Of a stretch of 64,000 bases of DNA, positions 30,926-46,832 are shown piece after piece. Position numbers and translations under genes: made by a program. The notes below the pieces were generated by a model. The model had not been told where the DNA came from. It did no database searches and saw nothing but the letters and a program-made list of their open reading frames with translations. Source of the DNA: a virus (taxonomy: Duplodnaviria; Heunggongvirae; Uroviricota; Caudoviricetes); IMG/VR virus record IMGVR_UViG_3300029705_000018; one strand, written 5' to 3'. Each line of letters starts with the position of its first letter. Positions within the stretch are counted from its first letter, which is position 1.

Positions 30926-30964
30926 CCCCTCCGGGGATCCCCATCATAAAGGAGATAATGGAGA

Positions 30965-32080: not shown

Positions 32081-32099
32081 GCTTTTGGAAGAGAATTGT

Positions 32100-33075: not shown

Positions 33076-33182
33076 CGTTCAGGGCCCGTTGAACCACACC
33101 CTTATTATACCACAAGTCGAGGTATTTGTCAACCCCTAAATCAAAAAAAAATCGACTGATTTCTCAGTCGATTTCTAAACAG

Positions 33183-33341: not shown

Positions 33342-33347
33342 ACCTCC

Positions 33348-33536: not shown

Positions 33537-33574
33537 TTTGTTTTCCTCCTTGTTTGATTTTCTTTATTATACCA

Positions 33575-33612
33575 TGTCGGGGGGCATTTGTCAAGCCCCC
33601 CGACAACTTTTT
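33575..33612 (-). promoter_or_regulatory. terminator hairpin with the next gene's -35 box in its loop (class-2 promoter, one of about 20)
   Basis: On the minus strand reads GTCGGGGGGC-TTGACAAAT-GCCCCCCGAC then ATGGTATAAT, i.e. TTGACA-N17-TATAAT with the -35 in the loop of the upstream gene's terminator. Confidence 0.55.
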
Positions 33613-33613
33613 T

Positions 33614-34228
33614 TTAGAAAGGCAGTTCGTCTGCCAGTCCGGCAACCTCATTCCATTCCTCGACAATCGCAGGAATATCGATGAAAGGACGGCTTGCCAT
33701 GTAGTCCGCCATGTGGACACATCTGTCCACATTGGTAAAGGGTCTGTCCTCTTTCTCGGTAGACCACTGACCCATGTGAGCGCAGACAGCGTTCAGAAGC
33801 AGAAAATGGGGTTCGCCGTAACCAGTGACCAGACAGTAATCACGGAAAGCAGTCGCCGCATTTCTGGCGTGATTCTTGTACTCGGCCTTGTCGAAACCAT
33901 CCAGACCATACTTGACAGTATCGTGAATGATACAGGCGACAATGACGAAATCCTTGTATTCTTCCTTCATGTATGCGTAAGAACTCATGCGGAGCAGTTC
34001 TTCGGCGAACATGACAACCGCCTTGGTGTGGCGAACCAGACCGCCAACGCCCTGGGACATCTTGGGGTGATACTTGCCAGAACTGGAAGCACCGTCTGTC
34101 CAGAAGTAGTCGGGAACTCGGTCGATCAGGTATCCCTTGACCGCCATGCGGAGATCCTCGTCCAGGATGAGGGACAGTTCCCTCTCAAAAAGCTTGATGT
34201 TCTTCATGGGTATCAATTCCTCTCTCAT
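33614..34228 (-). CDS. HD-domain phosphohydrolase
   Basis: GKYHP...VRHTKAVV...IVACIIHDTVKYG...D: the H...HD...D metal-binding signature. Confidence 0.6.
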   Translation of the reverse strand: MREELIPMKNIKLFERELSLILDEDLRMAVKGYLIDRVPDYFWTDGASSSGKYHPKMSQGVGGLVRHTKAVVMFAEELLRMSSYAYMKEEYKDFVIVACIIHDTVKYGLDGFDKAEYKNHARNAATAFRDYCLVTGYGEPHFLLLNAVCAHMGQWSTEKEDRPFTNVDRCVHMADYMASRPFIDIPAIVEEWNEVAGLADELPF

Positions 34229-34254
34229 TTGATGTACTCATTATAGCATAGGAT

Positions 34255-34446
34255 TTAGAGTTTGTCAAGTACTTTTTTAGAAAATTCTGTGTATTCAATA
34301 CACATTTTCAAAGTATCTTTTTCAACTGTCACACGCACAGAACTAACAAGGGGATTTTGTATCATCAGTTCGCCGGCCATTTTCTTGACCTCTGAATAGG
34401 GGATACCCTTACCAATTTCAATTCTAGCCATTGTTTTTCCCTCCAT
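34255..34446 (-). CDS. hypothetical protein
   Basis: 63 aa. Confidence 0.35.
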   Translation of the reverse strand: MEGKTMARIEIGKGIPYSEVKKMAGELMIQNPLVSSVRVTVEKDTLKMCIEYTEFSKKVLDKL

Positions 34447-34832
34447 GGTTCTGGGTTACCCCAGAACCACAAAATTTTTGCCGTAGTGGTCGTGAACGCC
34501 TTCTTCTACATTGTAGGTGATGGACAGTTCATCCATGTAAATGACCTTGGAATCACCAAAACCGAGTTCTTCCATGGTCTGAAGCTGGCGGAGCAGTTCA
34601 CTAACAGTAATGCACTTTTTATTCATGGGGGTTACCTCCTCTTGATTTATAATACAATTATACCACCGATTCCGGGAAAATCAAGTTGGAGTATTGCACA
34701 AAAAATGCGCCCCAAAAATTGTTGGAGTTGGTTATTTTGCCGAAAAACCGGCCCGCGCGCACGTAAAGGGCCGGCCGAAATTTGTGCAAATTGCACAAAA
34801 ACGAAGAAAAACCGGGATTTTTCCCGGTTTTT

Positions 34833-35201
34833 CTAACTTTTTGCCTTTCTTTTTGCGATTAAAGTCAATTCGTAGGCATTTTCACCAATTTTGAAGCTAA
34901 TTTGACGAGTTTTGTTGGTGATTTCCACTGAAACGTAGCCTTTTTCCGCTAAAAAGTGGGCGATTTCCGCAATTACAGCCTCTTTTTCCGGATTTTCGGT
35001 GGGTTTTCGTGCGGATTTGGTGGTTTTTGGCGATTTTGTGTCCGCATTAGCGTTTTTCATAGCCAGTTTGTGTGCTTCTGGACTCAAATCAAAGTCCATT
35101 TGCTCTCCCCTGTCGATGCATTTATCATCGGCAAGAATGGCTTCGGCTTCGCTTCTGGAACACTTGAGAGAACGCATGATGCGTTCGATTTGGCTATCCA
35201 T
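34833..35201 (-). CDS. hypothetical protein (cassette copy 1, gene a; paralog of 37891..38247)
   Basis: 122 aa. Shares the N-terminal I-K/R-L-M-K/R-S-L...S-R-E/S-E-A...D-E/D-D-K-R/C-I-D-R-G-E with its paralog. Confidence 0.5.
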   Translation of the reverse strand: MDSQIERIMRSLKCSRSEAEAILADDKCIDRGEQMDFDLSPEAHKLAMKNANADTKSPKTTKSARKPTENPEKEAVIAEIAHFLAEKGYVSVEITNKTRQISFKIGENAYELTLIAKRKAKS

Positions 35202-35300
35202 GGTGGTTGCCCCCTTTCCTTACTTAGTATAGCACATTTGGGGGGATTTGTCAAGAGGAAAGTTTGGGGGAGAATTTCTCCCCCTCTCCCCTCTCTCTGG

Positions 35301-35693
35301 TTAGACCAGAGAGAAGAAAGCCTTTCTCTTGTCCTCGGTTCTCTTGACCTGGCCTGCATCAACCATCTGGCGAACCAGAGCGGACATTCTCTGGTTGGTC
35401 ATGGTGTCAGGCAGGTTGGGAACCTTTTTCAGCAGTTCGGACACGGTGAACAGCTGATTGGGATTGGCTTCCATCACAGCCAGAACACCGGCCTTGATGG
35501 TTGCGTTGGCTTCCTGCTGAGCGGTGGGCTTCTTCTCAGCGGAGTTCTTCTTGGCCAGCAGTTCCTGCTCGTGGGCGATGAACTCAGCCAGCATGGGGTT
35601 GTTGGCGACTTCGGGGATGTTCGCAATCATAGCGAACTTCTGAGCCTTGGTCAGCTTGGTGGATGCGGAAGCGGAAGAAGTAGTGTTAGCCAT
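35301..35693 (-). CDS. hypothetical protein (cassette copy 1, gene b; paralog of 38327..38704)
   Basis: 130 aa. The MANTTSS...LTKAQKFA...DTMTNQRMSALVRQMVDAGQV block is near-identical in the paralog. Confidence 0.5.
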   Translation of the reverse strand: MANTTSSASASTKLTKAQKFAMIANIPEVANNPMLAEFIAHEQELLAKKNSAEKKPTAQQEANATIKAGVLAVMEANPNQLFTVSELLKKVPNLPDTMTNQRMSALVRQMVDAGQVKRTEDKRKAFFSLV

Positions 35694-36051
35694 AGTATCA
35701 ATTCCTTTCGGTTTTAGCGACTTGAACCTGTCGATGATTTATTCTGTAAGAGGTGTTCCTCTTTACATTCTTATTATAGCACATTCGGCTCGGTTTGTCA
35801 AGAACTTTTTTTCTTTTTTTTTCTTGACCTTGGAGGGTTGCCCCTCTCTTTTTGTACCCTCATTGTATCACATCTTGGGCGGTTTGTCAAGAGGTTTTTT
35901 CAACTTTTTTTTTCGCTCGGCTCGCTCTGTCCTGCGTTGTTGCCTGTCCCTCACTGACAAGGGTATTATACCATAGCCAGAAGCGGATTGCAATAGGCAA
36001 AGTATACAAAATCGGGAGAAATAATTTGTGCATTTTTTTCGCATTTTCCTC

Positions 36052-36175
36052 TTGACAAATTGCTGGGGGTATGGTATAATGGAAATTCTGCCCGGGCACA
36101 CTCGCGCCCGGGCCGCCGAAATGTCAATTGGTAATTTTGCACAAAAAAGTGAGGGTTGCCCCTCACTCATTTTTG
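36052..36175 (+). ncRNA. small-RNA-like mini transcription unit (consensus promoter, GC hairpin, terminator)
   Basis: TTGACA at 36052-36057, 17-nt spacer, TATAAT at 36075-36080. Then GCCCGGGCACACTCGCGCCCGGGC hairpin, CCGCCGAAATGTCAATTGGTAATTTTGCACAAAAAAG, and an AGTGAGGGTTGCCCCTCACT-CATTTTTG terminator. No ORF. Confidence 0.45.
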
Positions 36176-36604
36176 AATGACCGTTTCCAGATTGATTCCG
36201 GCGCTGACTTCTTCCCAGTTCTCCACATTGTCAACATGGACAACCTTGTGACAGCCATTGACCATCATCAGAGAATAGGTTGCGTTCTCATAACCGCACA
36301 GAACCTGGACAACCTCTTTGCCGATTGCCATGCCGAAGCCGGCTTCCCATGCCGTACCAGAGTCGGAATACATACCGAAGTTGAGAACCATGACCACATC
36401 ACAGTCATGGATGGCTTCAATGTCCATTTCAAAGACACGCTTTGCCCAGTCAGAGTTCGGCAAGTCCCATGCGTTGGGAACTTCATGCTCCTGGGGTACA
36501 TGAACCGGATAACCTGCGGAGCGCAGACGAGAGATGGTTTCCTTGTAGACTACCAATTCAGTAGCATTGAAGAACGGCGAAGCCAGATAGATTTTCTTTT
36601 TCAT
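36167..36604 (-). CDS. nucleoside 2-deoxyribosyltransferase-like protein (NDT/Rcl family)
   Basis: MKKKIYLASPFF...DSGTAWEAGFGMAIGKEVV matches the YLAGPFF and SGTAFEIG signature motifs. Start taken at the ATG with a GGAAAGGAAC ribosome-binding site (the six-frame track begins further upstream). Confidence 0.6.
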   Translation of the reverse strand: MKKKIYLASPFFNATELVVYKETISRLRSAGYPVHVPQEHEVPNAWDLPNSDWAKRVFEMDIEAIHDCDVVMVLNFGMYSDSGTAWEAGFGMAIGKEVVQVLCGYENATYSLMMVNGCHKVVHVDNVENWEEVSAGINLETVIQK

Positions 36605-36660
36605 AGTGTTCAGTTCCTTTCCTTTTTGTATTCTCATTATACCATGAGAAAAGGCTTTTG

Positions 36661-37005
36661 TCAAGCCTTTTCTACTCGGTAGAAGAAAAATTTATTGACA
36701 ATTCTTTTTGCCTTTTTGTCGTGGCAAAAATAAATACTTCCGAACAGATGTGTGGAATCGTCCATCAATTTGAGATTTTGAATTGCTTCCAATTTCACAG
36801 GCTTGCTTACATTGCGGAAGAGTTTCCAGAAGAAAACGAATGGGAAAAGCAGGATTTCCAGAATAATTTCCAGAATACCAGTGATGAGCAGATAGGGAAG
36901 CTGGATGAAGTTCATCCATCTCTGGCCCCACAGTTCTTCGTGAATGAAAGACAGGATAATGTATCCGGCAAGAATACCTAATAAGAAATTCAACATTTTA
37001 CACAC
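36661..37005 (-). CDS. membrane protein
   Basis: 114 aa, several hydrophobic helices. Confidence 0.4.
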   Translation of the reverse strand: MCKMLNFLLGILAGYIILSFIHEELWGQRWMNFIQLPYLLITGILEIILEILLFPFVFFWKLFRNVSKPVKLEAIQNLKLMDDSTHLFGSIYFCHDKKAKRIVNKFFFYRVEKA

Positions 37006-37060
37006 CTCATTTGTTTTTCTTTATTATAGCATGAATTGGGGGTTTTGTCAACCCCCAATT

Positions 37061-37387
37061 TTACGGAAGTTCATCGGGATAGCAGAAGCATTCCCATGCG
37101 ATACTCTCCCAAGTTTCCATACACTTGGAAGTGTTGCACAGCCAGATCGTGACAAAGAAAGTATTGACAACAGGCAGACCAATCATCAAAGCGCACTGGA
37201 TGAGACTGATGAAAGTCTTTGCCCAGTTCGTAGGCTGTTTGACCCTGACCATGCCCTTGGCCTTGCACTCCTTAAAAGTGGGAATCATAGCCAGACTGGC
37301 GAACACGAACAGATACAGGAAAGCCAGAATTGCGCTTGCGACATAGACCCAGAAGAAAATTTCTAACATAACATTTACCTCACTCAT
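37061..37387 (-). CDS. membrane protein
   Basis: 108 aa. Confidence 0.4.
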   Translation of the reverse strand: MSEVNVMLEIFFWVYVASAILAFLYLFVFASLAMIPTFKECKAKGMVRVKQPTNWAKTFISLIQCALMIGLPVVNTFFVTIWLCNTSKCMETWESIAWECFCYPDELP

Positions 37388-37441
37388 TTAATTTTCTTTA
37401 TTATAACATAGGTTTGCGAATTTGTCAAGAGTTATTTTGTA

Positions 37442-37654
37442 TCAAAGGGACATTTTCTGTCCCCAGATACAACGCTCAAAGGCAGGCTTGTAGACATTGT
37501 TCCAAATGAACTCCATCTCGTTGTAAGCTTCTCTGTCCTCCACAATCATTGCGTAGAACTGAACTGCTCCGAACGCCTGATGAATCCACAGTTCTTTGCC
37601 GTCCTTCTGGCACTGAGCCAAAAGCCAATCGATGTGCTGTTTCAGTTTATCCAT
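37442..37654 (-). CDS. hypothetical protein
   Basis: Start taken at MDKLKQ with a CAAGGAGGTAATC ribosome-binding site. Its own TTGACA-N17-TATAAT promoter is at ~37690-37725. A GC-hairpin module with a further upstream promoter lies at 37745-37830. Confidence 0.45.
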   Translation of the reverse strand: MDKLKQHIDWLLAQCQKDGKELWIHQAFGAVQFYAMIVEDREAYNEMEFIWNNVYKPAFERCIWGQKMSL

Positions 37655-37890
37655 GGTGATTACCTCCTTGATTTGTACCCTAATTATAGCATAGGTTTCG
37701 GGATTTGTCAAGGGGTTTTGCAAAAATAATTTTTGCAAGAAAAATTGCTGAAATAGGGGGTTAGTAGCGAAATGCCGGGCGCCACACTCGTCAGCGCCCG
37801 GCCATTATACCACATTCTTTTGAAAATGTCAAGCATTATTTTTTCGTCAAAATGCACAAAAAATCTGTCCGCGCTGGGCGGACAGATTTC

Positions 37891-38247
37891 TCAGGAGCGG
37901 GGACACGCAAGGGTGACTTTGTACTTCGTGCCGTTGTGGGTGAACAGGAACTCACGCTCGGCATTGGTGACATTGAACTCGGTGATTCCCAGTCCATTCA
38001 GACCTTCCATCATTGCGGAACACAGCTCTGCCTTTTCCGGCTTGGCTTTCTTCTCTCTTTTGGTGGTGGTCTGCTTGCGGTCTGCCTGTCGTGCTTTCTT
38101 TGCGCCCGCTTCCAGTTCGGGGTCAAGCTCAAACAACTTTTCGCCCCTGTCGATTCGCTTGTCTTCGTCCATCAGTTCGATGGCTTCCTCACGGCTGATG
38201 TTCAGCGACTTCATCAGCTTCTGGATTTTCTCTTCCATCGGGGTCAT
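37891..38247 (-). CDS. hypothetical protein (cassette copy 2, gene a)
   Basis: 118 aa paralog of 34833..35201. Confidence 0.5.
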   Translation of the reverse strand: MTPMEEKIQKLMKSLNISREEAIELMDEDKRIDRGEKLFELDPELEAGAKKARQADRKQTTTKREKKAKPEKAELCSAMMEGLNGLGITEFNVTNAEREFLFTHNGTKYKVTLACPRS

Positions 38248-38326
38248 CTCCTTTCTGTACTAAGTATAGCACAGATTGCTGGATTTGTCAAGGGGAAATT
38301 TTGGGGGAGTTTCCTCCCCCATCGGG

Positions 38327-38704
38327 TTACGCAATGGCGAAGAACGCCTTGCGCTTGTCCTCGGAGCGGACAACCTGACCCGCATCGACCATCTGACGGA
38401 CGAGTGCGCTCATGCGCTGATTGGTCATGGTGTCGGGCAGACCGGGCACTTCCTTGAGCAGTTCGGACACGGTGCGCTTCTTGCCGTCAGCCAGAACCTC
38501 CAGAACGGCGGTCTTGATTACGGCATTTGCCTCCTGCTGGGCAGTGGGCTTCTTGTCGGCGGAGTTCTTCTTTGCCAGAAGCTCAACTTCGTGGGCGATG
38601 AACTCGGACAGCATGGGGTCAGCCTTGACGGCGGGCAGTTCAGCCAGAATGGCGAACTTCTGAGCCTTGGTCAGACGAGCGGAAGAAGAAGTAGTGTTAG
38701 CCAT
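38327..38704 (-). CDS. hypothetical protein (cassette copy 2, gene b)
   Basis: Paralog of 35301..35693. Start taken at MANTTSS (ATG 38702-38704) with a GGAGA ribosome-binding site. Confidence 0.5.
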   Translation of the reverse strand: MANTTSSSARLTKAQKFAILAELPAVKADPMLSEFIAHEVELLAKKNSADKKPTAQQEANAVIKTAVLEVLADGKKRTVSELLKEVPGLPDTMTNQRMSALVRQMVDAGQVVRSEDKRKAFFAIA

Positions 38705-39374
38705 AGTATCGATCTCCAATCTTGCGGTAGGTCGCAACCCAAATTTGATTTATCTGTAAGAGGTGTTCCTCTTTACATTCTTATTGTATCACATCTTGAG
38801 CCAGTTGTCAAGAGGTTTTTTGAATTTTTTTTTGGCTTTCACTCCACCTAGTCCCTAATACAGCCTCGGGATTGGTTCACATTTATATTCCGCACAACGG
38901 AGCGACCGTGCGGTCGAGGACTTTGTCGTCATGGTCTGACACGACTCTCGTGGGTCTTGTCTCAACGACTTCTGCCATGCTTCCCTCTTTTGTACCCTTA
39001 TTATAACACATCTTGGGGAGTTTGTCAAGAGGTTTTTTTTCAGATTTCCTTCTGTTCGGTCATCTTGTGGTCACTTGCTCCGCAAGCCCTACCGCCTCCG
39101 ACCACGGCTAACCTCTTGACTTCTCTTACATTGTATCACAACTTGGGGGATTTGTCAAGGGGTTTCTTGAAGTTTCTTCAAGAAAGTTGCGTGCCGGAAG
39201 GTTGGGTCGTACACAGCCTCTGCCAACAGTTCGACGCCTAGCGTGGGTTTCCCAACTCCCGAGGCGTTCCCTCCCCTTGACACCAATACTATACCACATC
39301 TGCCCCCAGATTGCAATTGGCAAAATACACAAAATCGGGAAAAATAATTATTTATTATTTGTGCAATTTTCCTC

Positions 39375-39470
39375 TTGACAAATTGGCTGGCGGTGTGGTA
39401 TAATAAAATTTCGGCGCCCATCAACCGTGGGCGCCGCGCCGAAAAAGCCACCCCAAAAATGGGGTGGCTT
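39375..39470 (+). ncRNA. small-RNA-like mini transcription unit
   Basis: TTGACA at 39375-39380 and TATAAT at 39399-39404. Then TTTCGGCGCCCATCAACCGTGGGCGCCGCGCCGAAA hairpin with a 3-nt bulge, then AAAAAGCCACCCCAAAAATGGGGTGGCTTT. The same hairpin is the terminator of the minus gene 39476..39904. Confidence 0.4.
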
Positions 39471-39475
39471 TCGTA

Positions 39476-39904: not shown

Positions 39905-40003
39905 AGGTATCAGTTCCTTTCCTTTGTTGTACCAACATTATAACATGGATTAGTTGGTTTGTCAAGAGGTTTTTGAAAAATTTTTTTTAGGGGATGGGGC
40001 GGA

Positions 40004-40684: not shown

Positions 40685-40743
40685 TTCCTTTCCTTTGATG
40701 AACTTATTGTATCACAAAATAGCCGGTTTGTCAAGGGATTTTT

Positions 40744-41193
40744 TTAGAATCCCTGACACATTTTTTCCAGCTTCGCCCAGTTGACGGAGAAGACATTGCG
40801 GAAACCCTCAAACTCCATCTCGGCGTAGTCCATGAAGTTCCGCAGTTCAGAGTAGCAGGGCAGATGGCCATCGAACCGCAGACCGAACTCACGAGCCAGC
40901 TTCTTGCACCACAGTTCATCCAACTGGTCTTCGGTGAACTTCTCGTGGGTCTTGGGGTTGATAACCACACGGACTTCCTTGTGGTAGGTAGTCTTCTCAG
41001 TGCGGACGACCTGCACCAGACCATACTCCCGGGCAGTTTCCAGACAGACGGAAGCGGAATAGGGATAGCGACCATCGGAGAAGCGGTCACGAACCTCATT
41101 GAACTGCTTCTTGGTGAACTCAACAGGCAGAGCCTTGAAGGTTTCACGAGTCTTGGGAGCCAGTGCCATCATAGAAGAGAAATTGTGTGCCAT
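40744..41193 (-). CDS. hypothetical protein
   Basis: 149 aa. Confidence 0.45.
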   Translation of the reverse strand: MAHNFSSMMALAPKTRETFKALPVEFTKKQFNEVRDRFSDGRYPYSASVCLETAREYGLVQVVRTEKTTYHKEVRVVINPKTHEKFTEDQLDELWCKKLAREFGLRFDGHLPCYSELRNFMDYAEMEFEGFRNVFSVNWAKLEKMCQGF

Positions 41194-41654
41194 AATATTT
41201 TACCTCATTTCATTTATTTGGTGGGGCTTACCATCGTTTCCCTCACCTTGTATTTGTATTATAGCATAGATTGTTTGGTTTGTCAAGAGGTTTTCTCAAA
41301 AAATTCCGGACTTTTTTGATTATCTCCGATACTTCTTGCCTCAAAAGACCTGTTTTAGATTGTTGCCCCAGCTCATTCCTTGTACCCTCGGGCAAGGACT
41401 ATGTCAGTCCGCAACTTCTCTCTTTCCGCTTTCTCTTGGCGATTTTCTCCGTCGAGGTTCCCCTCTTGACACAGTCATTGTACCACAGATTTTGGGATTT
41501 GTCAACTCGTTAAAATACACAAATAATCGCCGAAAATAAATGCCTAGGTTGGTTATTGTGCCAAATTCGGCGCGCCTGGACCGTGGGCGCGCCGCCGAAC
41601 TTTTGTGCAAAATGACGAAAAATCCCTTTCCATTTCTGGAAAGGGATTCCAAAA

Positions 41655-42026
41655 TCAAATCACATTGAAAAGGACAATCTTTTCGGGAATGTCCTTCCAC
41701 TCGTTCCGACCGACCTGGATGCGGAGGGTGCGTCCGGTGATGAACTCAGTGCGCTGGACTGCGCCGACCTTGACCAGCTTCCGCACATTCTGAGAAATCA
41801 GCTGAACAGTGGGAGCATGATACTCGGGGTTGTACTTCTCCATCGGGTAGCCGTAAGACTCCCATCTCTTTCTGCCGACTACCTCGGCAATCTGTGTGGC
41901 AGTAGCACCGCACTCGCCGAAACCAGATAAGGCGCTCAGAATGTCGGACAGGTACTTGTATCTTTTTCGGTTCTCACGGGTAGAACACTCAGCGACAGCA
42001 ACATGGGCAAGATTAGGATTATTCAT
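41655..42026 (-). CDS. hypothetical protein
   Basis: 123 aa. Terminator GGAATCCCTTTCCAGAAATGGAAAGGGATTTTT lies directly downstream. Confidence 0.45.
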   Translation of the reverse strand: MNNPNLAHVAVAECSTRENRKRYKYLSDILSALSGFGECGATATQIAEVVGRKRWESYGYPMEKYNPEYHAPTVQLISQNVRKLVKVGAVQRTEFITGRTLRIQVGRNEWKDIPEKIVLFNVI

Positions 42027-42101
42027 AGTATCAATTCCTTTCAGTTCTCTTTTGTTGTAATTATTGTATCATAGGTTTTCGGATTTGTCAAGAGGAAATT
42101 C

Positions 42102-42542
42102 TCAGATTTCTCTGAGAATTTCCATGATGTTCTGTACATCGTGGGGGATGCCAGTCCATCCAGTTCTGTTCCGTTCCTCATCATCGAACAGAATGTCGAG
42201 AGGGGTTCGGCAGAACATTTCCTTAGGAGTGCCATAGGGAACGATGTTGATTTCATCCCAATGGACGGAGGGCAGATGTTCCGCAAGCCAGACCTTTTTG
42301 ACTTCGGTAACTCTTGCGTTGTACTCTTTGCTTCCGCTCTTGGAAGTCCAGGAGATAACGGAGAGCCGATAGCCTTGCTTCTGGAGTGCGTTCAGCTTGC
42401 GAGCCAGAGCGGAGAGGTTCAGCAGAGGTTTTGCGATTGCGTAGGGAGTGGTATCTTCAGCTTCCAGATAGGGGAGCCAGTTCTTGACACCGTAGAGGTC
42501 AGCGATTGTGCCGTCCATGTCGAAGTTAATTGTAACAGTCAT
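42102..42542 (-). CDS. HAD-superfamily 5'(3')-deoxyribonucleotidase-like protein
   Basis: N-terminal INFDMDGTIADL (HAD motif I, DxDGT). Size ~150 aa is typical of phage/NT5C-type nucleotidases. Confidence 0.55.
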   Translation of the reverse strand: MTVTINFDMDGTIADLYGVKNWLPYLEAEDTTPYAIAKPLLNLSALARKLNALQKQGYRLSVISWTSKSGSKEYNARVTEVKKVWLAEHLPSVHWDEINIVPYGTPKEMFCRTPLDILFDDEERNRTGWTGIPHDVQNIMEILREI

Positions 42543-42592
42543 TTGATTCAGTTCCTTTCCTTTTTTGTACCTTAATTATAACACGGAATACC

Positions 42593-42793
42593 TCATTTGT
42601 CAAGAGGTATTCCAACAATTTTTCTGATTTCTTCATCTTTTTTGTAGTGTGTGAAAGACTTGTCAAAGCAACATTCCACGATCCACAAATCATCTCCGGT
42701 GGAGTAGTTCACGACTTTCCACATTGTACCATGTTCGGGGAACACCAGACCGCACCGCACATGAGTCAGGGATCTACATTTAATTTTATCCAT
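42593..42793 (-). CDS. hypothetical protein
   Basis: 66 aa. Confidence 0.35.
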   Translation of the reverse strand: MDKIKCRSLTHVRCGLVFPEHGTMWKVVNYSTGDDLWIVECCFDKSFTHYKKDEEIRKIVGIPLDK

Positions 42794-42848
42794 TTATCTC
42801 ACCTCTTGATTATTGTATCATAGTTTGGAGATTTTGTCAAGCCCTTTT

Positions 42849-43410
42849 TTAGTAGGGCTTGGCAACTCTCTTTGCTTCCTTGGGGTCAATCAGAACACCA
42901 ACAAAGCGGTCATTCAGCTGATAGGCTTCTTCATACTTGCCGATGAAATAAGCACGCATCCGACTTTCACAGGCGATTGTGGCGGAGAGGTTGTGGCAGG
43001 GTTCGCACATTACAACTTCAAGCCGAACTTTTGCACCTGCCAACTTTTCATACTCGGCGACTTCCTGCTGAAATCTTTCCTGCGGTTGTTCGCTTGTACC
43101 AATCTTGCTTGCGTACAGCAGACCAGATTCCACAAAGTACACATGGAGCAGATAGCAAGCAGAGCCGAACACTTCCCGCACCTTCCAATCAATGTAATGC
43201 TTGGTGTGGTTGGTTCTACCTCTTCCGCACTTAAAAGCGACCTTGTCTTTTTCCTTGACGGTGAACCGCTTCATCCATGCTTCATACTGATTTGCCTTGT
43301 AAGCGGTCAGAACTGCTTTCCATGCCTTCTGGATGTGTCCTGCGGACAAGCCTGCGTTCTTACGGCGATTGTATTCTTTTACCAGACCCTCAAAAATAAC
43401 CTCATTCATT
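42849..43410 (-). CDS. hypothetical protein
   Basis: Start taken at MNEVIFEGL with a GGAAAGAGGAAC ribosome-binding site. Confidence 0.4.
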
Positions 43411-43528
43411 TTGTGTTCCTCTTTCCGGGTTGCCCCTTGATTTATAAGCCTAGTATACACTATAAATCACGATTTGTCAAGCATTATTTTGGGATTTTTC
43501 AAAAAAAGTTTTTTGTGCAAATTGCCTA

Positions 43529-43625
43529 TTGACAAATTGGCTGGGCTGTGGTATAATGGAAATAACGCGCCGGCTGGGTCGTGGGCGGCGCGCCGAAAAA
43601 TAAAGTGAGAATTTCTTCTCACTTT
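43529..43625 (+). ncRNA. small-RNA-like mini transcription unit
   Basis: TTTTGTGCAAATTGCC, then TTGACA at 43529-43534, 17-nt spacer, TATAAT at 43552-43557. Then AACGCGCCGGCTGGGTCGTGGGCGGCGCGCC hairpin, GAAAAATAA, and AAGTGAGAATTTCTTCTCACTTT terminator. Confidence 0.45.
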
Positions 43626-43857
43626 ACAGCTTGGTTCCAGAAGGTGACCGGAAAATCATTTCAGTTTTCTTGTATGTGATTTCTGCGGTGGCTCCGCAAC
43701 CACATTTGAATTTGCGATACAGCTGATGGGAAGTTTCTCCCTCGTAAACTACCTTGAACTGTGCGGTGCTTCCGCAATTAGGACATCTCTCAACCATTAT
43801 TATCATTTCCTTTCCTTTTGTTGTACTTATTATACCATGTAATTGGGGATTTGTCAA
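43624..43857 (-). CDS. small zinc-ribbon protein
   Basis: 77 aa with CPNCGS...CGCG. Confidence 0.4.
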   Translation of the reverse strand: MTNPQLHGIISTTKGKEMIIMVERCPNCGSTAQFKVVYEGETSHQLYRKFKCGCGATAEITYKKTEMIFRSPSGTKL

Positions 43858-44180
43858 TCCCCAATTTCACAACATTCGTAAGTATTTTGCGGGATGATGC
43901 AGTCCATCACATCAAACTTCTGTGCGTTGCCATGAATGAGATAGACATGAGCATTGGGAAACTCCCTCTGAATGTCTTCCAGATAATTGTAGAAGCCATT
44001 ACACAGTTGTTCAAACCGTTCCTGTCTTTCGTCAATGCGTTCCTCGCACATCTGAGCGAGTGCCCGCAACTGTTCTTTGTTCATGTTTTTGACATTGTCG
44101 CAGAGGTCTGCGAATCTAACTGGATTCAACATGGTATCATTCTCCTTTCTTGAACTTCTGGCGATTGTATCGCTTGCCAC
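43854..44180 (-). CDS. hypothetical protein
   Basis: 108 aa. Confidence 0.4.
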   Translation of the reverse strand: MASDTIARSSRKENDTMLNPVRFADLCDNVKNMNKEQLRALAQMCEERIDERQERFEQLCNGFYNYLEDIQREFPNAHVYLIHGNAQKFDVMDCIIPQNTYECCEIGD

Positions 44181-44361
44181 TTTCTACCTTGCTTCCTCTC
44201 TTGCGGAAGTTCAGCCACTGCTGAAGTTCTTCGCCCTCTTTCTTGAATACTCGGCGATCCAGTTCCTTTTTCTTCTTTGCCATTGTTGTCAACTCCTTTG
44301 TTTTTCTATAAATATTATAACATACTTTTTATTTATTGTCAAGGGGAATTTTTCATTCCCC

Positions 44362-44676
44362 TTACATTCTCAGCAGAAACGCATACTTTTCATTGTTCTT
44401 GCGGACTCTGTTCTTCAATGCCACAGGCATCTTTTCATTGTAGTAGAAGGAAGAAACCTGAGCCATCGTTCCCATGTATCCGGTGATGAGGGTATCATCC
44501 TTGACTACCAAAATGATTCCGGTATCAGTCAGCTTTCTGGTTGCGTATTCGCCATGCCGGTAGCTTGTCTGTTCTCTGATGATTTCATTGAATCCCAGAT
44601 GTTGGATGCAAGCGGTGAGTCTGTCAATCCGTTCTTCCTTAGCGTGGTAGGTCATTTCAAATCTCATAGTAGCCAT
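44362..44676 (-). CDS. hypothetical protein
   Basis: 104 aa. Confidence 0.4.
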   Translation of the reverse strand: MATMRFEMTYHAKEERIDRLTACIQHLGFNEIIREQTSYRHGEYATRKLTDTGIILVVKDDTLITGYMGTMAQVSSFYYNEKMPVALKNRVRKNNEKYAFLLRM

Positions 44677-45009
44677 TGTTTTTATCTCCTTTTGTTTTCC
44701 TTTTTTGTACCTTTATTATAACATGAGTTTCGGGATTTGTCAAGGGGTTTTTTATTTATTTTTCAAAACCCCATCAGACAGAACAGAATCATAACAACCA
44801 GACCTGTGAGGGTCAGACCCAAGGCCGCAAGGAAGTTTTCAAACATTTGCTTGTAATTCTTGCGATTGTCCACAGGACACCAGTCTGCGTAATAGATGTT
44901 CCGGCAGATGCGGAAGCGGATGTATTTGAACAGTTTCTTCATGGCTCTTGGCTCCTCTCTTTTGTTGTCTTCATTATAACACAAAAGAGGCTTGTTGTCA
45001 AGCCCCTTT

Positions 45010-45345
45010 TTAGAAAATTCTAATAATTTCATCGTCGTAAATGTCATTTGTACCCATGTCATCAAACTCAATCCAGACCTGCTGCCCCAGTTCGAAGGAT
45101 TCTCCCTCTTCCAGTTCCCAGACCCAGACCTCGCCAGAAGCATCCTCAAAAGCAACAGCCTCTGCATTGACTTCGCACACAGTAGCACTTACTTCATTAG
45201 CATCACTGTAGAGACAGTCTACGAGCATCCATCCGCACACCATAGCCAGAGCCAGCATTCCTACGCACAGTACTTTTCTAATCATTGTCATTATCTCCTT
45301 CGTTGTTTGTACCTGTATTGTATCATGAATTATGGGATTTGTCAA
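45010..45345 (-). CDS. putative secreted protein or lipoprotein (signal-peptide-like N-terminus; true start probably the internal MTMIRK)
   Basis: The hydrophobic stretch VLCVGMLALAMVCGW comes after an internal Met. A TTGACA-N17-TACAAT promoter lies upstream on the minus strand. Confidence 0.4.
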   Translation of the reverse strand: MTNPIIHDTIQVQTTKEIMTMIRKVLCVGMLALAMVCGWMLVDCLYSDANEVSATVCEVNAEAVAFEDASGEVWVWELEEGESFELGQQVWIEFDDMGTNDIYDDEIIRIF

Positions 45346-45449
45346 TCGTCAAAATACACAAAAGAATTGCGTTTTTTATTTGCTGAGTTGTGCATTTCGC
45401 CGAAGTCTAGGCAGGTGGCGGTCGTGTGCGGAGACAAGTAAAGGTCTGC

Positions 45450-45668
45450 TTATTTGCAGACCTTCATGATTAGTCTCTCATAGCTTAGTCCTGCCACAGC
45501 ACACAGAGACCGCAGGTTCTCTTTGACGTACAGCTTCTCTGCATAGGCAAGTGTGCCCTTCGGCTTGTCCATCATGCGCATGATGTAGTTGTACTGATAG
45601 GTCTCGCGCAGGCTAGGCTTGCGCTCTGTGATGATGTCGAGCATCTTGTTGATGGCTGTCTTGTTCAT
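45450..45668 (-). CDS. hypothetical protein
   Basis: 72 aa. Terminator AAAGGTCTGCTTATTTGCAGACCTT lies downstream. Confidence 0.4.
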   Translation of the reverse strand: MNKTAINKMLDIITERKPSLRETYQYNYIMRMMDKPKGTLAYAEKLYVKENLRSLCAVAGLSYERLIMKVCK

Positions 45669-46022
45669 TGTGTGTGCCTCCTTTACTTGATGGTGATGGT
45701 GGTGTGCTTGGTGTACTTGCTAGTCTTTACATCTACGATGGTATCCTGGTAGGCTCTGTTGCTGATGCTGTGGAACTCTACGGTGGTGTTCTTGTCTTCT
45801 ACCTTGTTCAGCAGAGCGATCAGTTCAGCGACGGTCATGGTGTTCTTCATAGTGTGTATCTCCTTTACTCTTGGGTTGTGTCCCTCTCTCTTTGTGTCTT
45901 TATTATAACATTACAGGAGTTATTTGTCAAGCTTTTTTTTATTATTTTACACACTTTTTTTTCTACAGCCTAGCCCTACGGGCCAGTTAGGGAGCCTGTG
46001 GGTCGTGGTCGGTGGCTACTCC

Positions 46023-46394
46023 TTACAGAGTAGCCATTACCTTAGCAAGCTCTTCAGTACTCATGCTCTTGTAGTGTTCCATGATAGCCTTGAGCATCTT
46101 GTTGCGCTTAGTCTCTTCTTCTCTCTCTGTGTTGCGCTGTGCTCTGTACTCGTCACGCTCAGCCTCTGTGTCGAACCACGTGTACTGTCCGTAGAGGTAG
46201 CCAACCTTCTTGCCCTGTGCGGTGTAGATGTTGATGATGCCTTTGTTGTTGTTGATGTACATGACCTCGGACCAACCACCTTCGTTGTGGATGTCATAGA
46301 TGTTACGCTTGGGGATGTTGTGGGCTTCGATGTAGTCCTTGGTGTAGAGCTTCTGTCCGTTGATGTGGTACAGTTCGTTTACGTTGTGCATCAT
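46023..46394 (-). CDS. hypothetical protein
   Basis: 123 aa. Confidence 0.45.
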   Translation of the reverse strand: MMHNVNELYHINGQKLYTKDYIEAHNIPKRNIYDIHNEGGWSEVMYINNNKGIINIYTAQGKKVGYLYGQYTWFDTEAERDEYRAQRNTEREEETKRNKMLKAIMEHYKSMSTEELAKVMATL

Positions 46395-46832
46395 AGTGAT
46401 TATCTCCTTTACTTTGTGAGGTGTGTTCCTCTGTTTTTTGTAGCTTTATTATAACACACGGGTGAGAGTTTGTCAAGGGGTTTTAGGAAATTTTTTTATT
46501 ATTTTTTTTCTTTGGAATGTGGCAAAATTTTCTCGAACCTCTCAAGATAACGCAAAATCGGCTCTGCGCGCACGTCGCCGAGCCGAGCAATTAGGGGGTG
46601 CTTTGTAGGGGGTGGGTATCTGTCATGTGTCAGAGAGTTTAGAGACATGGACAATAGACTCTGTATTTTCTGCCGGATGAAAAACCGGGGGTGTATTTCG
46701 GGAAAAACTTTTTTTTCGATAGGCCAAAACTTTTGCGCTGGGCAATACAATCTTGAAATCAATTTTCAATTTCGGAATACGATTCTGGGATAAAAAAAAG
46801 GAGAACGGTATTTTACCATTCTCCTCAAATTT

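What the first reader, a model, noticed from the sequence alone, without database searches (positions are those of the whole stretch)
33575..46500. Class-2 promoters: consensus TTGACA-N17-TATAAT with the -35 box presented in the loop of the upstream terminator hairpin
From ~33 kb the early promoter element is replaced by consensus sigma-70 promoters on the minus strand. The TTGACAAA box sits between the two arms of a GC-rich inverted repeat, which is also the terminator of the preceding gene:
- GTCGGGGGGC-TTGACAAAT-GCCCCCCGAC
- AATTGGGGG-TTGACAAAA-CCCCCAATT
- AAGGC-TTGACAAAA-GCCTT
About 20 copies are visible on the plus strand as ...tttgtcaag... preceded by tattata[c/g]ca. This very compact terminator/promoter fusion implies a temporal switch (early to middle) and may couple termination to re-initiation.
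Basis: seen in the sequence. Interest (0 to 1): 0.5.

Follow-up and report, generated by a model that had tools for sequence, protein, structure and literature searches.

The report
Phage early promoter–hairpin gene cassettes
A 13-kb block of a large gut or rumen phage carries 30 near-perfect host-type promoters, one per small gene, and at six of them the hairpin that closes the previous gene is wrapped around the next promoter's -35 box; this compact promoter/stem-loop cassette is real and conserved, but the same kind of element (PeSLs) is already described in T4-like phages.

Summary
The sequence observation is real but over-generalised. Between 33,104 and 46,476 the minus strand holds 30 promoters with a perfect TTGACA, a 17-nt spacer and TGnTATAAT, about one per small ORF. 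Only 6 of the 30 have a hairpin centred on the -35 box. About 15 others carry a hairpin just upstream, and 8 have none.

The -35-centred hairpins are far above chance: 27 of 262 non-redundant promoters against 0.6±0.8 in shuffles. They recur at one orthologous junction in diverged relatives with different arms. They occur where the upstream stop codon lies within about 20 nt of, or inside, the -35 box. G·T pairs outnumber A·C pairs in the stems, which points to a sense-strand RNA hairpin. None has a clean U run, so I read them as attenuators or weak terminators rather than proven terminators.

The closest known kind is the PeSL (promoter-early stem-loop) of T4-type phages. It has the same parts, including a subclass that overlaps the -35 box.

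These consensus promoters drive standard-code ORFans. The other promoter class drives tRNAs and sits among TAG-recoded genes, so class 2 is most likely the earliest. Verdict: a new member of a known kind, of moderate interest.

The parts
33104..46476 (-). Array of 30 class-2 promoters (A-rich upstream tract, TTGACAAA, 17-nt G+C-rich variable spacer, TGnTATAAT). There is about one per small ORF, or one per ~450 bp. This is the putative early, hyperplastic gene module.
   Evidence: Searches give positions and chance expectation. One search shows an SD plus ORF downstream of 28 of the 30. One search shows that only about 7 of 28 genes are conserved in relatives.
33575..33605 (-). Hairpin TGTCGGGGGGC / ttgacaaat / GCCCCCCGACA around the -35 box of the promoter at 33566-33594. 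The stop codon of the HD-domain gene lies 19 nt upstream of the -35 box.
   Evidence: dG -24.2, positions -11..+19; orthologous junction in relatives.
36647..36673 (-). Hairpin AGAAAAGGCTT / gacaa / AAGCCTTTTCT around the -35 box of the promoter at 36636-36664. The upstream ORF ends with the TGA inside T-TGA-CA.
   Evidence: dG -14.3; tail score -4.0 when the stem is trimmed to its G+C core.
37034..37060 (-). Hairpin AATTGGGGGTT / gacaa / AACCCCCAATT around the -35 box of the promoter at 37023-37051. The upstream stop codon (TAA) ends 9 nt before the -35 box.
   Evidence: dG -16.6.
42584..42614 (-). Hairpin TGGAATACCTC / ttgacaaat / GAGGTATTCCG around the -35 box of the promoter at 42575-42603. 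The upstream ORF's TGA lies at +8, in the loop/3' arm.
   Evidence: dG -15.6.
43841..43866 (-). Hairpin AATTGGGGATT / gaca / AATCCCCAATT around the -35 box of the promoter at 43829-43857. The upstream open frame ends with the TGA inside TTGACA.
   Evidence: dG -14.7.
44983..45010 (-). Hairpin AAAAGGGGCTTG / acaa / CAAGCCTCTTTT overlapping the -35 box of the promoter at 44973-45001. Its G+C core is followed by TTTTGTGTTAT, the most terminator-like of the six. It is also called as a plus-strand terminator.
   Evidence: dG -15.2; tail -4.75; plus-strand terminator 44989-45004.
44340..44364 (-). Hairpin TAAGGGGAAT / gaaaa / ATTCCCCTTG whose 3' arm runs into the first bases of the -35 box at 44342.
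   Evidence: dG -13.6, -22..+2.
42838..42861 (-). Hairpin CAAGCCCT / actaaaaa / AGGGCTTG whose 3' arm overlaps TTG of the -35 box at 42840. The A-rich upstream tract sits in the loop.
   Evidence: dG -12.2; called as a plus-strand terminator.
40734..40754 (-). Hairpin AGGGATT / ctaaaaa / AATCCCT abutting the -35 box at 40734.
   Evidence: dG -6.8; an alternative of -8.9 spans -24..+5.
46798..46826 (-). Canonical intrinsic terminator (13-bp stem plus TTTTTTTT) at the upstream edge of the array.
   Evidence: tail score -5.24.
41619..41650 (-). Canonical terminator-like hairpin plus T run inside the module.
37857..37893 (-). Canonical terminator (16-bp stem with a T run) upstream of the promoter at 37832.
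34805..34834 (.). Bidirectional terminator (13-bp stem flanked by A and T runs).
   Evidence: called on both strands.
33147..33176 (-). Canonical terminator (13-bp stem plus a T9 run) upstream of the last class-2 promoter at 33132.
   Evidence: The small gene plus this terminator are absent from relative L007, where homology resumes at the -35 box.
36052..36175 (+). Antisense unit 1: a consensus promoter, a G+C hairpin, CGCCGAAA and a terminator hairpin, giving an RNA of about 90 nt. Its terminator (36147-36168) also ends the sense-strand gene 36167-36604.
   Evidence: z = -3.8.
39375..39473 (+). Antisense unit 2, with the same design. Both of its hairpins read as tandem terminators on the sense strand after gene 39476-39904.
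   Evidence: z = -6.1.
43529..43626 (+). Antisense unit 3, with the same design.
   Evidence: z = -4.4. At least 20 distinct copies occur in relatives.
1196..32890 (.). For contrast, the region holding the class-1 promoter family: TTGATT-TTTCAAAAAAAATATGT-TATAAT-ATATATGTAAGGTAAAG. There are about 16 copies on the minus strand and 2 on the plus strand (31200, 32862). They sit in front of tRNA clusters, the ROOL RNA and larger genes.
26488..26542 (-). Example of the class-1 form of terminator/promoter fusion. The hairpin AAACCTCCTG/gttca/CAGGAGGTTT has a U tract that is the T-rich -35 region (TTTTGATTTTT). Similar fusions occur at 25332, 21781, 5815 and +32862.

Best explanation
The block at 33.1-46.5 kb is a hyperplastic module of small early genes in a large phage of Firmicutes that recodes TAG.

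**Unit design.** Each ORF is its own transcription unit. It consists of an A-rich UP-like tract, TTGACAAA, a 17-bp spacer, TGnTATAAT, a short leader with a strong Shine-Dalgarno sequence, the ORF, a stop codon and a stem-loop. The promoters are read as ordinary duplex DNA by the host sigma-A holoenzyme.

**Role of the stem-loop.** The stem-loop belongs to the unit upstream. It forms in RNA that reads out of the preceding ORF. It acts as an attenuator or weak intrinsic terminator, and probably also as a protector of the 3' end. This insulates very strong promoters that sit only about 450 bp apart.

**Why it wraps the -35 box.** Its position follows the stop codon. Where that stop lies within about 20 nt of the next -35 hexamer, or inside it, there is no room upstream. 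The stem is then wrapped around the -35 box. The promoter's A tract and the T-containing distal spacer and -10 region serve as its A and U tracts.

**Family and timing.** These are functional analogues of the PeSL (promoter-early stem-loop) cassettes of T4-type phages. Like them, they probably also provide the repeated homology that lets ORFans be shuffled. The class-2 promoters are most likely the earliest class. The TTGATT/AT-spacer class is a later one.

**Shown:** the sequence architecture, its excess over chance, its conservation with changed arms, its link to stop-codon position, the strand asymmetry of wobble pairs, and the hyperplasticity of the module.

**Inferred:** termination or attenuation, timing, and a role in recombination.
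For: **Promoters**
- 30 perfect-TTGACA/N17/TGnTATAAT sites lie on one strand in 13.4 kb.
- The A tract at -10..-5 from the -35 box is present in about 77% of 262 non-redundant promoters.

**Hairpins against chance**
- A hairpin of dG -8 or better lies within -70..+28 of 114 of 262 promoters, against 9.4±3 in shuffles.
- -35-centred hairpins occur at 27 of 262 promoters, against 0.6±0.8.

**Link to the stop codon**
- In the window the six -35-centred hairpins all have the upstream stop at -22..+8. Hairpins further upstream go with gaps of 31-58 nt.

**Conservation**
- Downstream of the HD-gene orthologue the -35 box is bracketed by GTCGGGGGGC/GCCCCCCGAC (window), GGGGGTT/AACCCCC (L014), TCGCAAAAGGGGT/GCCCCTTTTGCGG (L017), TAAGAAAAGGGGTT/AACCCCTTTTCTTA (L003/L018) and TCAGAAAAGGGGTTG/CAGCCCCTTTTCTGA (L019).
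- Across IMG/VR, GGGG-TTGACAA-N1-4-CCCC…TGnTATAAT gives at least 118 stretches, against 7 for a GGGG…GGGG control.
- Bases just outside the fixed arms are complementary in 75, 62 and 47 of 92 cases, against 43, 32 and 30 when permuted.

**RNA, sense strand**
- Internal G·T mismatches number 26 and A·C 8.

**Terminator-likeness**
- With stems trimmed to the G+C core, 9 of 30 hairpins have a TransTermHP-style tail score of -3.5 or better, against 3% of background positions. The six in the window score -2.7 to -4.75, against -2.2 to -5.2 for the window's canonical terminators.
- Class-1 promoters show an analogous fusion, with the T-rich -35 region as the U tract.

**Precedent**
- PeSLs combine a near-perfect sigma-70 promoter, an AT-rich upstream region and a polyG/polyC stem-loop. 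The stem-loop position varies and includes overlap with the -35 box. One stem-loop terminated as well as rrnB T1 in a lacZ assay (PMC2839356).
- My own scan of RB49 found one case with the -35 box in the loop and several with the -10 box in the loop.

**Hyperplasticity**
- Only about 7 of 28 module genes have homologues in relatives.
- Homology breakpoints lie within 40 nt of a promoter in 32% of cases, against 14±3.5% at random.
- One indel is bounded by the -35 box.

**Timing**
- Module genes contain no in-frame TAG, and 24 of 25 end in TAA or TGA.
- The terminase, the portal, a GT2 glycosyltransferase and a C1 peptidase need TAG read-through.
- Recoded proteins are thought to be made only late in infection (PMC9523058).
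- Kayvirus RNA-seq shows early promoters with a strong sigma-70 consensus and TRTGN extension, and late promoters with only a TGTTATATTA -10 motif (PMC7698491).
Against: - No transcript data exist for this phage or its uncultured relatives.
- None of the 18 -35-spanning hairpins counted (the 18 of 262 non-redundant promoters whose best hairpin holds the -35 core in its loop) has at least 5 T in the 8 nt after the full stem, whereas 17 of 66 upstream hairpins do. Some tails are clearly poor, for example GCCCCCCGACA|TGGTATAAT at 33575.
- 8 of the 30 promoters in the window, and 148 of 262 overall, have no perfect-stem hairpin, so insulation cannot depend on it everywhere.
- The T enrichment at +13..+17 in hairpin promoters may only mirror pairing with the universal A tract.
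- The breakpoint enrichment is expected for any intergenic feature.
- The timing argument rests on analogy and on codon usage. Both promoter classes carry TGnTATAAT and could be used at the same time.
Confidence: 0.6

Rival explanations
1. Class-2 promoters are a middle class that takes over from an 'early' TTGATT class. The inverted repeat is an efficient terminator, and termination inside the next promoter hands the polymerase directly to that promoter (coupled re-initiation).
For: - Two promoter classes meet at a sharp boundary near 33 kb.
- The hairpin sits at the 3' end of the upstream gene.
- Bacterial RNAP can stay on DNA after hairpin termination and re-initiate at the nearest promoter ('recycling termination', PMC11347151).
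Against: - Consensus sigma-70/sigma-A promoters before ORFans are the early class wherever this has been measured (PMC2839356; PMC7698491).
- Class-2 genes are free of in-frame TAG, while the class-1 region holds tRNAs and recoded genes.
- Only 6 of the 30 promoters have this arrangement.
- The U tracts are weak.
Confidence: 0.12
2. The hairpins do not terminate. They are 3'-end stabilisers or processing signals on read-through polycistronic early RNA, and they protect each upstream cistron from 3' exonucleases after endonucleolytic cutting.
For: - There is no canonical U run after the -35-spanning or abutting hairpins.
- The wobble-pair asymmetry points to the sense strand.
- Canonical terminators occur only about every 2-4 kb in the module, which would delimit polycistronic blocks.
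- From my own knowledge, not checked here: early SP82/SPO1 RNA is processed at intergenic hairpins by Bacillus RNase III.
Against: - Stems of 7-12 bp are short for RNase III.
- The PeSL stem-loop that was tested did terminate (PMC2839356).
- 9 of 30 hairpins have good tails once trimmed.
- The cultured Enterococcus phage versions have clear A and U tracts.
Confidence: 0.2
3. The hairpins serve the opposite strand. Together with the A tract upstream of the -35 box, which reads as a T run on the plus strand, they are terminators for antisense transcription entering or arising in the module.
For: - 12 of the 26 -35-overlapping hairpins have at least 5 A in the 8 nt before the 5' arm.
- The scan calls plus-strand terminators at 44989-45004 and 42834-42865.
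- Antisense promoters exist at 36052, 39375 and 43529, and a plus-strand class-1 promoter at 32862 fires into the module.
Against: - The A tract is present equally in promoters without hairpins, so it is a promoter feature.
- G·T pairs exceed A·C pairs on the sense strand, the opposite of what an antisense RNA hairpin predicts.
- The antisense units carry their own terminators.
- Three of the six window cases have poor plus-strand T runs.
Confidence: 0.08
4. The inverted repeats act as DNA. They are operators for a dimeric phage regulator that shuts the promoter off, cruciforms that respond to supercoiling, or simply recombination sites, with no RNA role.
For: - The palindromes are centred on the -35 box, where a repressor would compete with sigma.
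- PeSLs are proposed recombination sites, with crossovers mapped in or beside the stem-loop (PMC2839356).
- The module is hyperplastic.
Against: - The arms have no common sequence (GTCGGGGGGC, AATTGGGGG, GGAATACCTC, AGAAAAGGC). What is conserved is pairing, not a motif.
- The wobble asymmetry argues for RNA.
- Hairpin position tracks the stop codon rather than the promoter.
Confidence: 0.07

Closest known systems
PeSLs (promoter-early stem-loops) of T4-type phages RB49/phi1, PST and nt-1 (Arbiol et al. 2010, PMC2839356; Comeau et al. 2014, PMC4122927)
   Same: - A near-perfect TTGACA-N17-TATAAT promoter with an AT-rich tract upstream.
- A stem-loop that often runs polyG…polyC. The nt-1 consensus, A3-4G3-loop-C3T3-4, is nearly the AAAAGGGG…CCCCTTTT seen here.
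- The stem-loop sits at variable positions, including overlap with the -35 box.
- The whole cassette fits between the upstream stop codon and the downstream SD/ATG.
- Cassettes are concentrated in hyperplastic ORFan regions.
- Variants built on a second promoter class exist (PmSL there, class-1 fusions here).
   Different: - The phage lineage and host phylum are unrelated: a Firmicute phage related to phAss-1 and to large Enterococcus phages, with TAG recoding.
- The promoters carry the Gram-positive TG extension.
- Here the stem-loop most often lies upstream of or around the -35 box. In RB49 it lies mostly in the spacer or around the -10 box.
- In four cases the upstream stop codon is the TGA inside TTGACA.
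- Termination, early timing and mini-circle recombination were shown for PeSLs and are untested here.
Early promoters of the SPO1 host-takeover module (terminal redundancy of Bacillus phage SPO1)
   Same: A cluster of small genes of mostly unknown function, each or nearly each with a strong sigma-A promoter (AAAAAGTG-TTGACA…TGnTATAAT) and with hairpins between genes.
   Different: In SPO1 the hairpins are canonical terminators with T runs, lying 30-50 nt upstream of the -35 box. None overlaps the promoter among the 5 strongest promoters I scanned. It is unknown whether the module here lies in a terminal repeat.
Kayvirus (Staphylococcus phage K-like) early and late promoter classes defined by RNA-seq (PMC7698491)
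   Same: There are two promoter classes. The early class has TTGACW-N17-TRTGN-TATANT, matching class 2. The later class is defined mainly by an extended -10 motif (TGTTATATTA), which compares with TGTTATAATAT in class 1.
   Different: Kayvirus terminators all carry polyT, and no overlap between promoter and hairpin is described. Class 1 here also has a conserved TTGATT, an AT-rich spacer and a conserved transcribed start.
Canonical (L-shaped) intrinsic terminators and bidirectional terminators
   Same: A G+C-rich stem-loop directly after a stop codon. Many copies have an A tract before the stem and some T after it. Several are called as terminators on the opposite strand.
   Different: There is no uninterrupted U tract after the full stem (0 of 18). 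The loop of 4-13 nt holds a functional promoter element. The G+C core is often only 4-7 bp.
Morons of lambdoid phages (promoter-gene-terminator insertions)
   Same: Autonomous single-gene transcription units with their own promoter and terminator, associated with gene gain and loss.
   Different: Morons are isolated insertions without conserved flanks. Here, as in PeSLs, the regulatory cassette is a repeated and conserved sequence shared by tens of tandem units.

Membership tests
PeSL-type composite promoter/stem-loop cassette | Near-consensus sigma-70-type promoter (TTGACA, about 17 nt, TATAAT) | tested here: met
   30 sites have a perfect -35 box, a 17-nt spacer and at most 1 mismatch in the -10 box.
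PeSL-type composite promoter/stem-loop cassette | AT-rich tract upstream of the -35 box | tested here: met
   A frequency is 0.76-0.80 at -9..-5 (0.50 at -10) relative to the -35 box, with a second A tract at -20..-16, in 235 non-hairpin promoters and likewise in the 27 hairpin promoters.
PeSL-type composite promoter/stem-loop cassette | Stable stem-loop, often polyG…polyC, at a variable position relative to the promoter, including overlap with the -35 box | tested here: met
   114 of 262 promoters have a hairpin of dG -8 or better, against 9.4±3 in shuffles. The positional classes are listed. -35-centred hairpins: 27 against 0.6±0.8.
PeSL-type composite promoter/stem-loop cassette | The cassette fills the gap between the upstream stop codon and the downstream SD/start codon | tested here: met
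   Leaders are 12-73 nt. The upstream stop lies at -69..+20 relative to the -35 box.
PeSL-type composite promoter/stem-loop cassette | Concentrated in hyperplastic regions rich in ORFans | tested here: met
   Only about 7 of 28 module genes have homologues in 11 related loci. Most have no Pfam or PHROG function.
PeSL-type composite promoter/stem-loop cassette | The stem-loop terminates or attenuates transcription from upstream | not testable with these tools
   The sequence proxy is mixed: 0 of 18 have at least 5 T in 8 nt after the full stem, while 9 of 30 score -3.5 or better after trimming.
PeSL-type composite promoter/stem-loop cassette | The promoters are early (host holoenzyme, immediately after infection) | not testable with these tools
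   Support is indirect only: the genes contain no in-frame TAG, and there is analogy with measured systems (PMC2839356, PMC7698491).
PeSL-type composite promoter/stem-loop cassette | Recombination between cassettes causes gene indels or mini-circles | tested here: inconclusive
   Homology breakpoints lie within 40 nt of a promoter in 32% of cases, against 14±3.5% at random. One indel is bounded by the -35 box. Both results are also expected for any intergenic boundary.
PeSL-type composite promoter/stem-loop cassette | Carried by a T4-type (Straboviridae) phage, so that the elements are homologous to the described ones | tested here: not met
   The capsid protein's best matches are phAss-1 (46%) and large Enterococcus phages (40%). 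The element is an analogue, not a homologue.
Canonical intrinsic (Rho-independent) terminator | G+C-rich stem-loop | tested here: met
   Stems are 7-15 bp with dG -9 to -24 kcal/mol.
Canonical intrinsic (Rho-independent) terminator | A U tract immediately 3' of the stem (at least 5 T in 8 nt) | tested here: not met
   0 of 18 -35-spanning hairpins and 0 of 7 abutting hairpins meet this, against 17 of 66 hairpins further upstream.
Sigma-A (sigma-70 family, housekeeping) promoter of Firmicutes | -35 TTGACA, 17±1 nt spacer, -10 TATAAT, frequent TG at -15/-14, A-rich UP region | tested here: met
   Function itself is not testable here.

The most novel reading that the evidence does not exclude
The zero-distance terminator/promoter fusion exploits 'recycling termination'. 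Host RNAP that releases its RNA at a hairpin inside the next promoter stays on the DNA and re-initiates there. A single polymerase would then be passed down a chain of about 30 early units, which would give the phage a head start when free holoenzyme is scarce. The arrangement appears widespread in Firmicute phages: at least 118 IMG/VR stretches and cultured Enterococcus Saphexaviruses carry it. That would make it an unrecognised general design rule rather than a by-product of compaction.
Probability: 0.1. Interest if true: 0.65.

Novelty: new member of a known kind. Interest (0 to 1): 0.35.

Why it matters
- **Independent origin.** Composite promoter/stem-loop cassettes, so far described only in T4-like phages of Gram-negative hosts, have arisen independently in large Firmicute phages. 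They are common in viral metagenomes and in cultured Enterococcus phages.
- **Annotation.** This gives a simple way to mark the early, hyperplastic gene module in uncultured phage genomes. It also helps to order the expression classes of TAG-recoded phages.
- **A test bed.** These cassettes offer a natural case of a terminator-like hairpin with a working promoter element in its loop. Such a case is useful for questions about promoter insulation, weak-U-tract termination and polymerase recycling.
- **Not a new principle.** The finding extends a known kind of element rather than revealing a new mechanism.

Tried and rejected
- **DNA similarity.** Megablast and blastn of 33-47 kb against 50,697 phage records found nothing. 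Relatives had to be found through proteins.
- **Rfam.** A permissive search of 32-50 kb gave only sub-threshold chance hits.
- **Protein families.** Pfam and PHROGs on class-1-region and module genes were mostly uninformative for timing.
- **Pair counting on orthologues.** MAFFT alignment of the five orthologous -35 hairpins put the arms out of register because the loops differ in length. I therefore did not run pair counting on it. I relied instead on the explicit arm listing and on permutation tests.
- **Antisense RNAs.** RNAalifold on 21 copies of the antisense-unit RNA returned no structure, for the same alignment reason.
- **Operator idea.** I rejected a shared protein operator because the arms have no common sequence.
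- **'Presented' -35 box.** I rejected presentation of the -35 box as single-stranded DNA because nothing supports it. Sigma region 4 binds duplex DNA, which is established knowledge.
- **Phage-encoded sigma factor.** I rejected a phage-encoded sigma for class 2 because both hexamers, the spacing and the TG extension match the host housekeeping consensus exactly.
- **SPO1 as closest analogue.** SPO1 is a weaker match, because its terminators do not overlap its promoters.

Full report
**1. What is in the sequence**

TTGACAAA occurs 31 times in the window, against 5.1±2.5 in dinucleotide shuffles. 26 of these copies lie on the minus strand between 33,125 and 46,476.

A stricter scan asked for a perfect TTGACA, a 17-nt spacer and at most 1 mismatch to TATAAT. 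It finds 30 minus-strand promoters from 33,132 to 46,476, and 29 of them have the TG extension. For 28 of them a Shine-Dalgarno sequence and an ORF of 31-226 aa follow within 12-162 nt. The block is therefore a tandem array of single-gene units spaced about 450 bp apart.

Below 33 kb a different and very uniform promoter family takes over. Its consensus is TTGATT-TTTCAAAAAAAATATGT-TATAAT-ATATATGTAAGGTAAAG, with about 18 copies. These sit in front of the tRNA clusters, a ROOL RNA and larger genes.

**2. How general is the -35 box in the loop?**

It is not general. A brute-force hairpin search places a stem-loop centred on the -35 box at six promoters: 33594, 36664, 37051, 42603, 43857 and 45001. 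The arms run from -9/-11 to +16/+19, with dG from -14 to -24 kcal/mol.

At three more promoters (44342, 42840, 40734) the 3' arm runs into the first bases of the hexamer. About twelve have a hairpin further upstream, and two of those are canonical terminators with T runs. Eight have none.

**3. Is the subset more than chance, and is it conserved?**

No DNA match exists in 50,697 phage records. Two module proteins, however, retrieved 23 related IMG/VR loci with 56-99% amino-acid identity. Each carries 14-32 such promoters on the gene strand.

I pooled these into 262 non-redundant promoters.
- 27 have a -35-centred hairpin of dG -8 or better, against 0.6±0.8 (maximum 4) when the flanks are shuffled.
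- 114 have some hairpin in -70..+28, against 9.4±3.

Directly after the HD-domain gene, the one junction that can be followed across lineages, the -35 box is bracketed by different but complementary arms in the window/L007, L014, L017, L003/L018 and L019. In other lineages the junction is replaced by a hairpin over the stop codon (L008) or by a canonical terminator fused to a class-1 promoter (L020).

A non-complementary GGGG…GGGG control gives 7. In 92 unique hits the bases just outside the fixed arms are complementary in 75, 62 and 47 cases, against 43±4, 32±4 and 30±4 when the partners are permuted. Pairing is therefore under selection, and the design is widespread.

**4. What the hairpin belongs to**

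Its position follows the stop codon of the upstream ORF.
- In all six -35-centred cases the stop starts at -22 to +8 relative to the first T of TTGACA.
- At 36664 and 43857, and also at 39158 and 37711, the stop is the TGA inside T-TGA-CA.
- Hairpins that lie further upstream go with gaps of 31-58 nt.

The transcript that starts at the promoter itself does not contain the hairpin. Only RNA coming from upstream does.

Among single internal mismatches in 124 stems, G·T occurs 26 times and A·C 8 times. That is the asymmetry expected if the sense-strand RNA folds. It is not expected for duplex-DNA palindromes or for antisense RNA. The arms share no sequence, which argues against a common protein operator.

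**5. Terminator or not?**

None of the 18 hairpins whose loop holds the -35 core has at least 5 T in the 8 nt after the full stem. 17 of 66 upstream hairpins do. The module also contains about seven canonical terminators. The -35-spanning hairpins are therefore not canonical intrinsic terminators.

The terminal A-U pairs can instead be treated as A and U tracts. Then 9 of 30 have a TransTermHP-style tail score of -3.5 or better, against 3% of background positions. The six in the window score -2.7 to -4.75, which lies within the range of the window's canonical terminators (-2.2 to -5.2).

In a cultured Enterococcus faecalis Saphexavirus the same cassette has clear tracts, for example AAAAAGGGGCTT-gaca-AGGCCTCTTTTT. 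In Staphylococcus phage 6ec the matching sequence is annotated as a terminator.

Class-1 promoters show their own fusion: a hairpin ending 0-3 nt before a T-rich -35 region that serves as the U tract.

I conclude that the hairpins are most likely attenuators or weak terminators, and possibly 3'-end protectors. They insulate the units from one another. This step is inferred, not shown.

**6. Timing**

The phage is a distant relative of phAss-1, a gut phage that reads TAG as Gln (PMC10607447). Several genes in the window become full length, or gain domain coverage, only if TAG is read through:
- the terminase (51462-53201, three TAG);
- the portal (53584-55182, two TAG);
- several other late genes;
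- a GT2 glycosyltransferase (Pfam 63.7 against 34.9 bits);
- a C1 peptidase.

The 25 class-2 genes contain no in-frame TAG, and 24 of them end in TAA or TGA. Recoded proteins are thought to be made only after the code-switch machinery is deployed (PMC9523058).

Measured systems point the same way. In RB49/phi1 the sigma-70-consensus cassettes are early (PMC2839356). In a Kayvirus, RNA-seq shows early promoters with TTGACW-N17-TRTGN-TATANT and late promoters with a TGTTATATTA -10 motif (PMC7698491). The latter resembles the TGTTATAATAT of class 1.

I put this at roughly 70%. It is an inference.

**7. Comparison with what is known**

PeSLs (promoter-early stem-loops) of T4-type phages have all of the following parts:
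- a near-perfect sigma-70 promoter;
- an AT-rich upstream tract;
- a polyG/polyC stem-loop, in five positional subclasses that include overlap with the -35 box;
- a location between the stop codon and the next SD;
- enrichment in hyperplastic ORFan regions.

One stem-loop terminated as well as rrnB T1, and recombination between cassettes shuffles genes (PMC2839356, PMC4122927). My scan of 50 kb of RB49 shows stem-loops mostly in the spacer or around the -10 box, and one around the -35 box.

The module here is likewise hyperplastic. Only about 7 of 28 genes are shared with relatives. Homology breakpoints are enriched at promoters, 32% against 14±3.5%. One indel is bounded by the -35 box. These last two results do not prove cassette-mediated recombination.

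SPO1's host-takeover promoters have ordinary terminators 30-50 nt upstream and no overlap.

The element is therefore an analogue of PeSLs in an unrelated, Gram-positive-type, TAG-recoded phage lineage. It is a new member of a known kind.

**8. Other features inside the region**

Three plus-strand (antisense) units lie at 36052, 39375 and 43529. Each combines a conserved consensus promoter with a short two-hairpin RNA. Their hairpins double as tandem terminators for the sense strand and cut the module into four blocks.

**9. Verdict**

- Observation: partly confirmed.
- Interpretation: partly supported. The fusion is plausible and has precedent. Its generality and the timing labels are not supported.
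- Coupling of termination to re-initiation is not excluded. It has a mechanistic basis in recycling termination of bacterial RNAP (PMC11347151), but it is untested.
- Interest is moderate.

Noticed in passing
window 51462-53201, 53584-55182, 49166-50218, 60278-62669 (+); 7781-8803 and 225-1013 (-): Late and some other genes are interrupted by in-frame TAG and become full length only if TAG is read as an amino acid. Examples are the terminase (3 TAG), the portal (2), a GT2 glycosyltransferase (Pfam score 34.9 rising to 63.7 bits) and a C1 peptidase (TAG inside the domain match). The phage is a distant relative of the code-15 phage phAss-1. No tRNA with a CTA anticodon was found among the 31 tRNAs of the window.
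   Followed up: partly
window 2984-3609 (-): A full-length ROOL RNA (Rfam RF03087, 323 bits, E = 1e-73) lies directly downstream of a class-1 promoter with its -35 box at 3789.
   Followed up: no
window 36052-36175, 39375-39473, 43529-43626 (+): Three copies of an antisense unit lie inside the early module. Each has a conserved promoter (TTGTGCAA…TTGACAAATTGCTGG…TGGTATAATGGAAATTC), a G+C hairpin, CGCCGAAAAA and a terminator hairpin. They predict RNAs of 60-90 nt (z-scores -3.8 to -6.1). At least 20 distinct copies occur in related loci, with arms that differ but stay complementary. There is no Rfam match. This may be a new small RNA or an insulator built from convergent transcription.
   Followed up: partly
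window 1196-32890, e.g. -35 boxes at 3789, 4988, 12744, 13047, 20120, 24104, 25332, 26516 (-) and 31200, 32862 (+): The second promoter family is conserved over about 50 nt, including the AT-rich spacer and the first ~15 transcribed bases (TATAAT-ATATATGTAAGGTAAAG). This is much more than sigma-A recognition needs. It suggests a phage factor, or homogenisation by recombination.
   Followed up: partly
window 11868-11937 and 11953-12021 (-); also 10489-10524 (-): Two tRNA-like genes were found by Rfam (40.8 and 38.6 bits). ARAGORN reports them only with irregular anticodon loops of 4 and 2 bases. A DUF3800-XI RNA motif (47.6 bits) lies next to tRNA-Glu.
   Followed up: partly
window 36661-36663, 43854-43856, 39155-39157, 37708-37710 (-): The stop codon of the upstream open frame is the TGA contained in the -35 hexamer T-TGA-CA of the next promoter. 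Coding sequence and promoter therefore overlap.
   Followed up: yes
window 33040-33098, 37700-37798, 41380-41471 (-): Three class-2 promoters (33132, 37832, 41505) are not followed by an SD/ORF. They are followed by a structured leader or a short hairpin-plus-T-run transcript, for example GGGCCCTGAACGGAGGTCAGGGCCCGATTTT after 33132. The fold z-scores are weak (-1.7, -1.0, 0.0).
   Followed up: partly
window 38327-38704 / 35301-35693 and 37891-38238 / 34833-35201 (-): A two-gene block is duplicated within the module (both first genes start MANTTSS…). Both pairs are among the few module genes conserved in all relatives. The first gene has a weak MarR-like winged-helix hit, which makes it a candidate regulator of the promoter switch.
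   Followed up: no
window 48995-49023 (-) and 49107-49135 (+): A pair of divergent consensus promoters with AT-rich spacers lies at the boundary between the minus-strand genes and the plus-strand structural gene cluster. The minus-strand promoter heads a conventional overlapping-gene operon (46.8-48.9 kb) that includes a FolD-like gene.
   Followed up: no
L152 (Enterococcus phage vB_LilEfe_55, PQ433352) locus positions 3326, 5931, 9011; hits H17-H26: Cultured Enterococcus faecalis Saphexaviruses carry the same cassette with the -35 box in the loop and clear A and U tracts. An example is AAAAAGGGGCTT-gaca-AGGCCTCTTTTT-catgcTATAGT between the DNA polymerase gene and its neighbours. This gives a tractable experimental model.
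   Followed up: partly
L012 and L016 (IMGVR_UViG_3300032167_000002, 402,311 bp): One IMG/VR contig holds two diverged copies of the module about 204 kb apart (75% and 71% identity to the window's HD gene). It is probably a chimeric or concatenated assembly of two related phage genomes.
   Followed up: no
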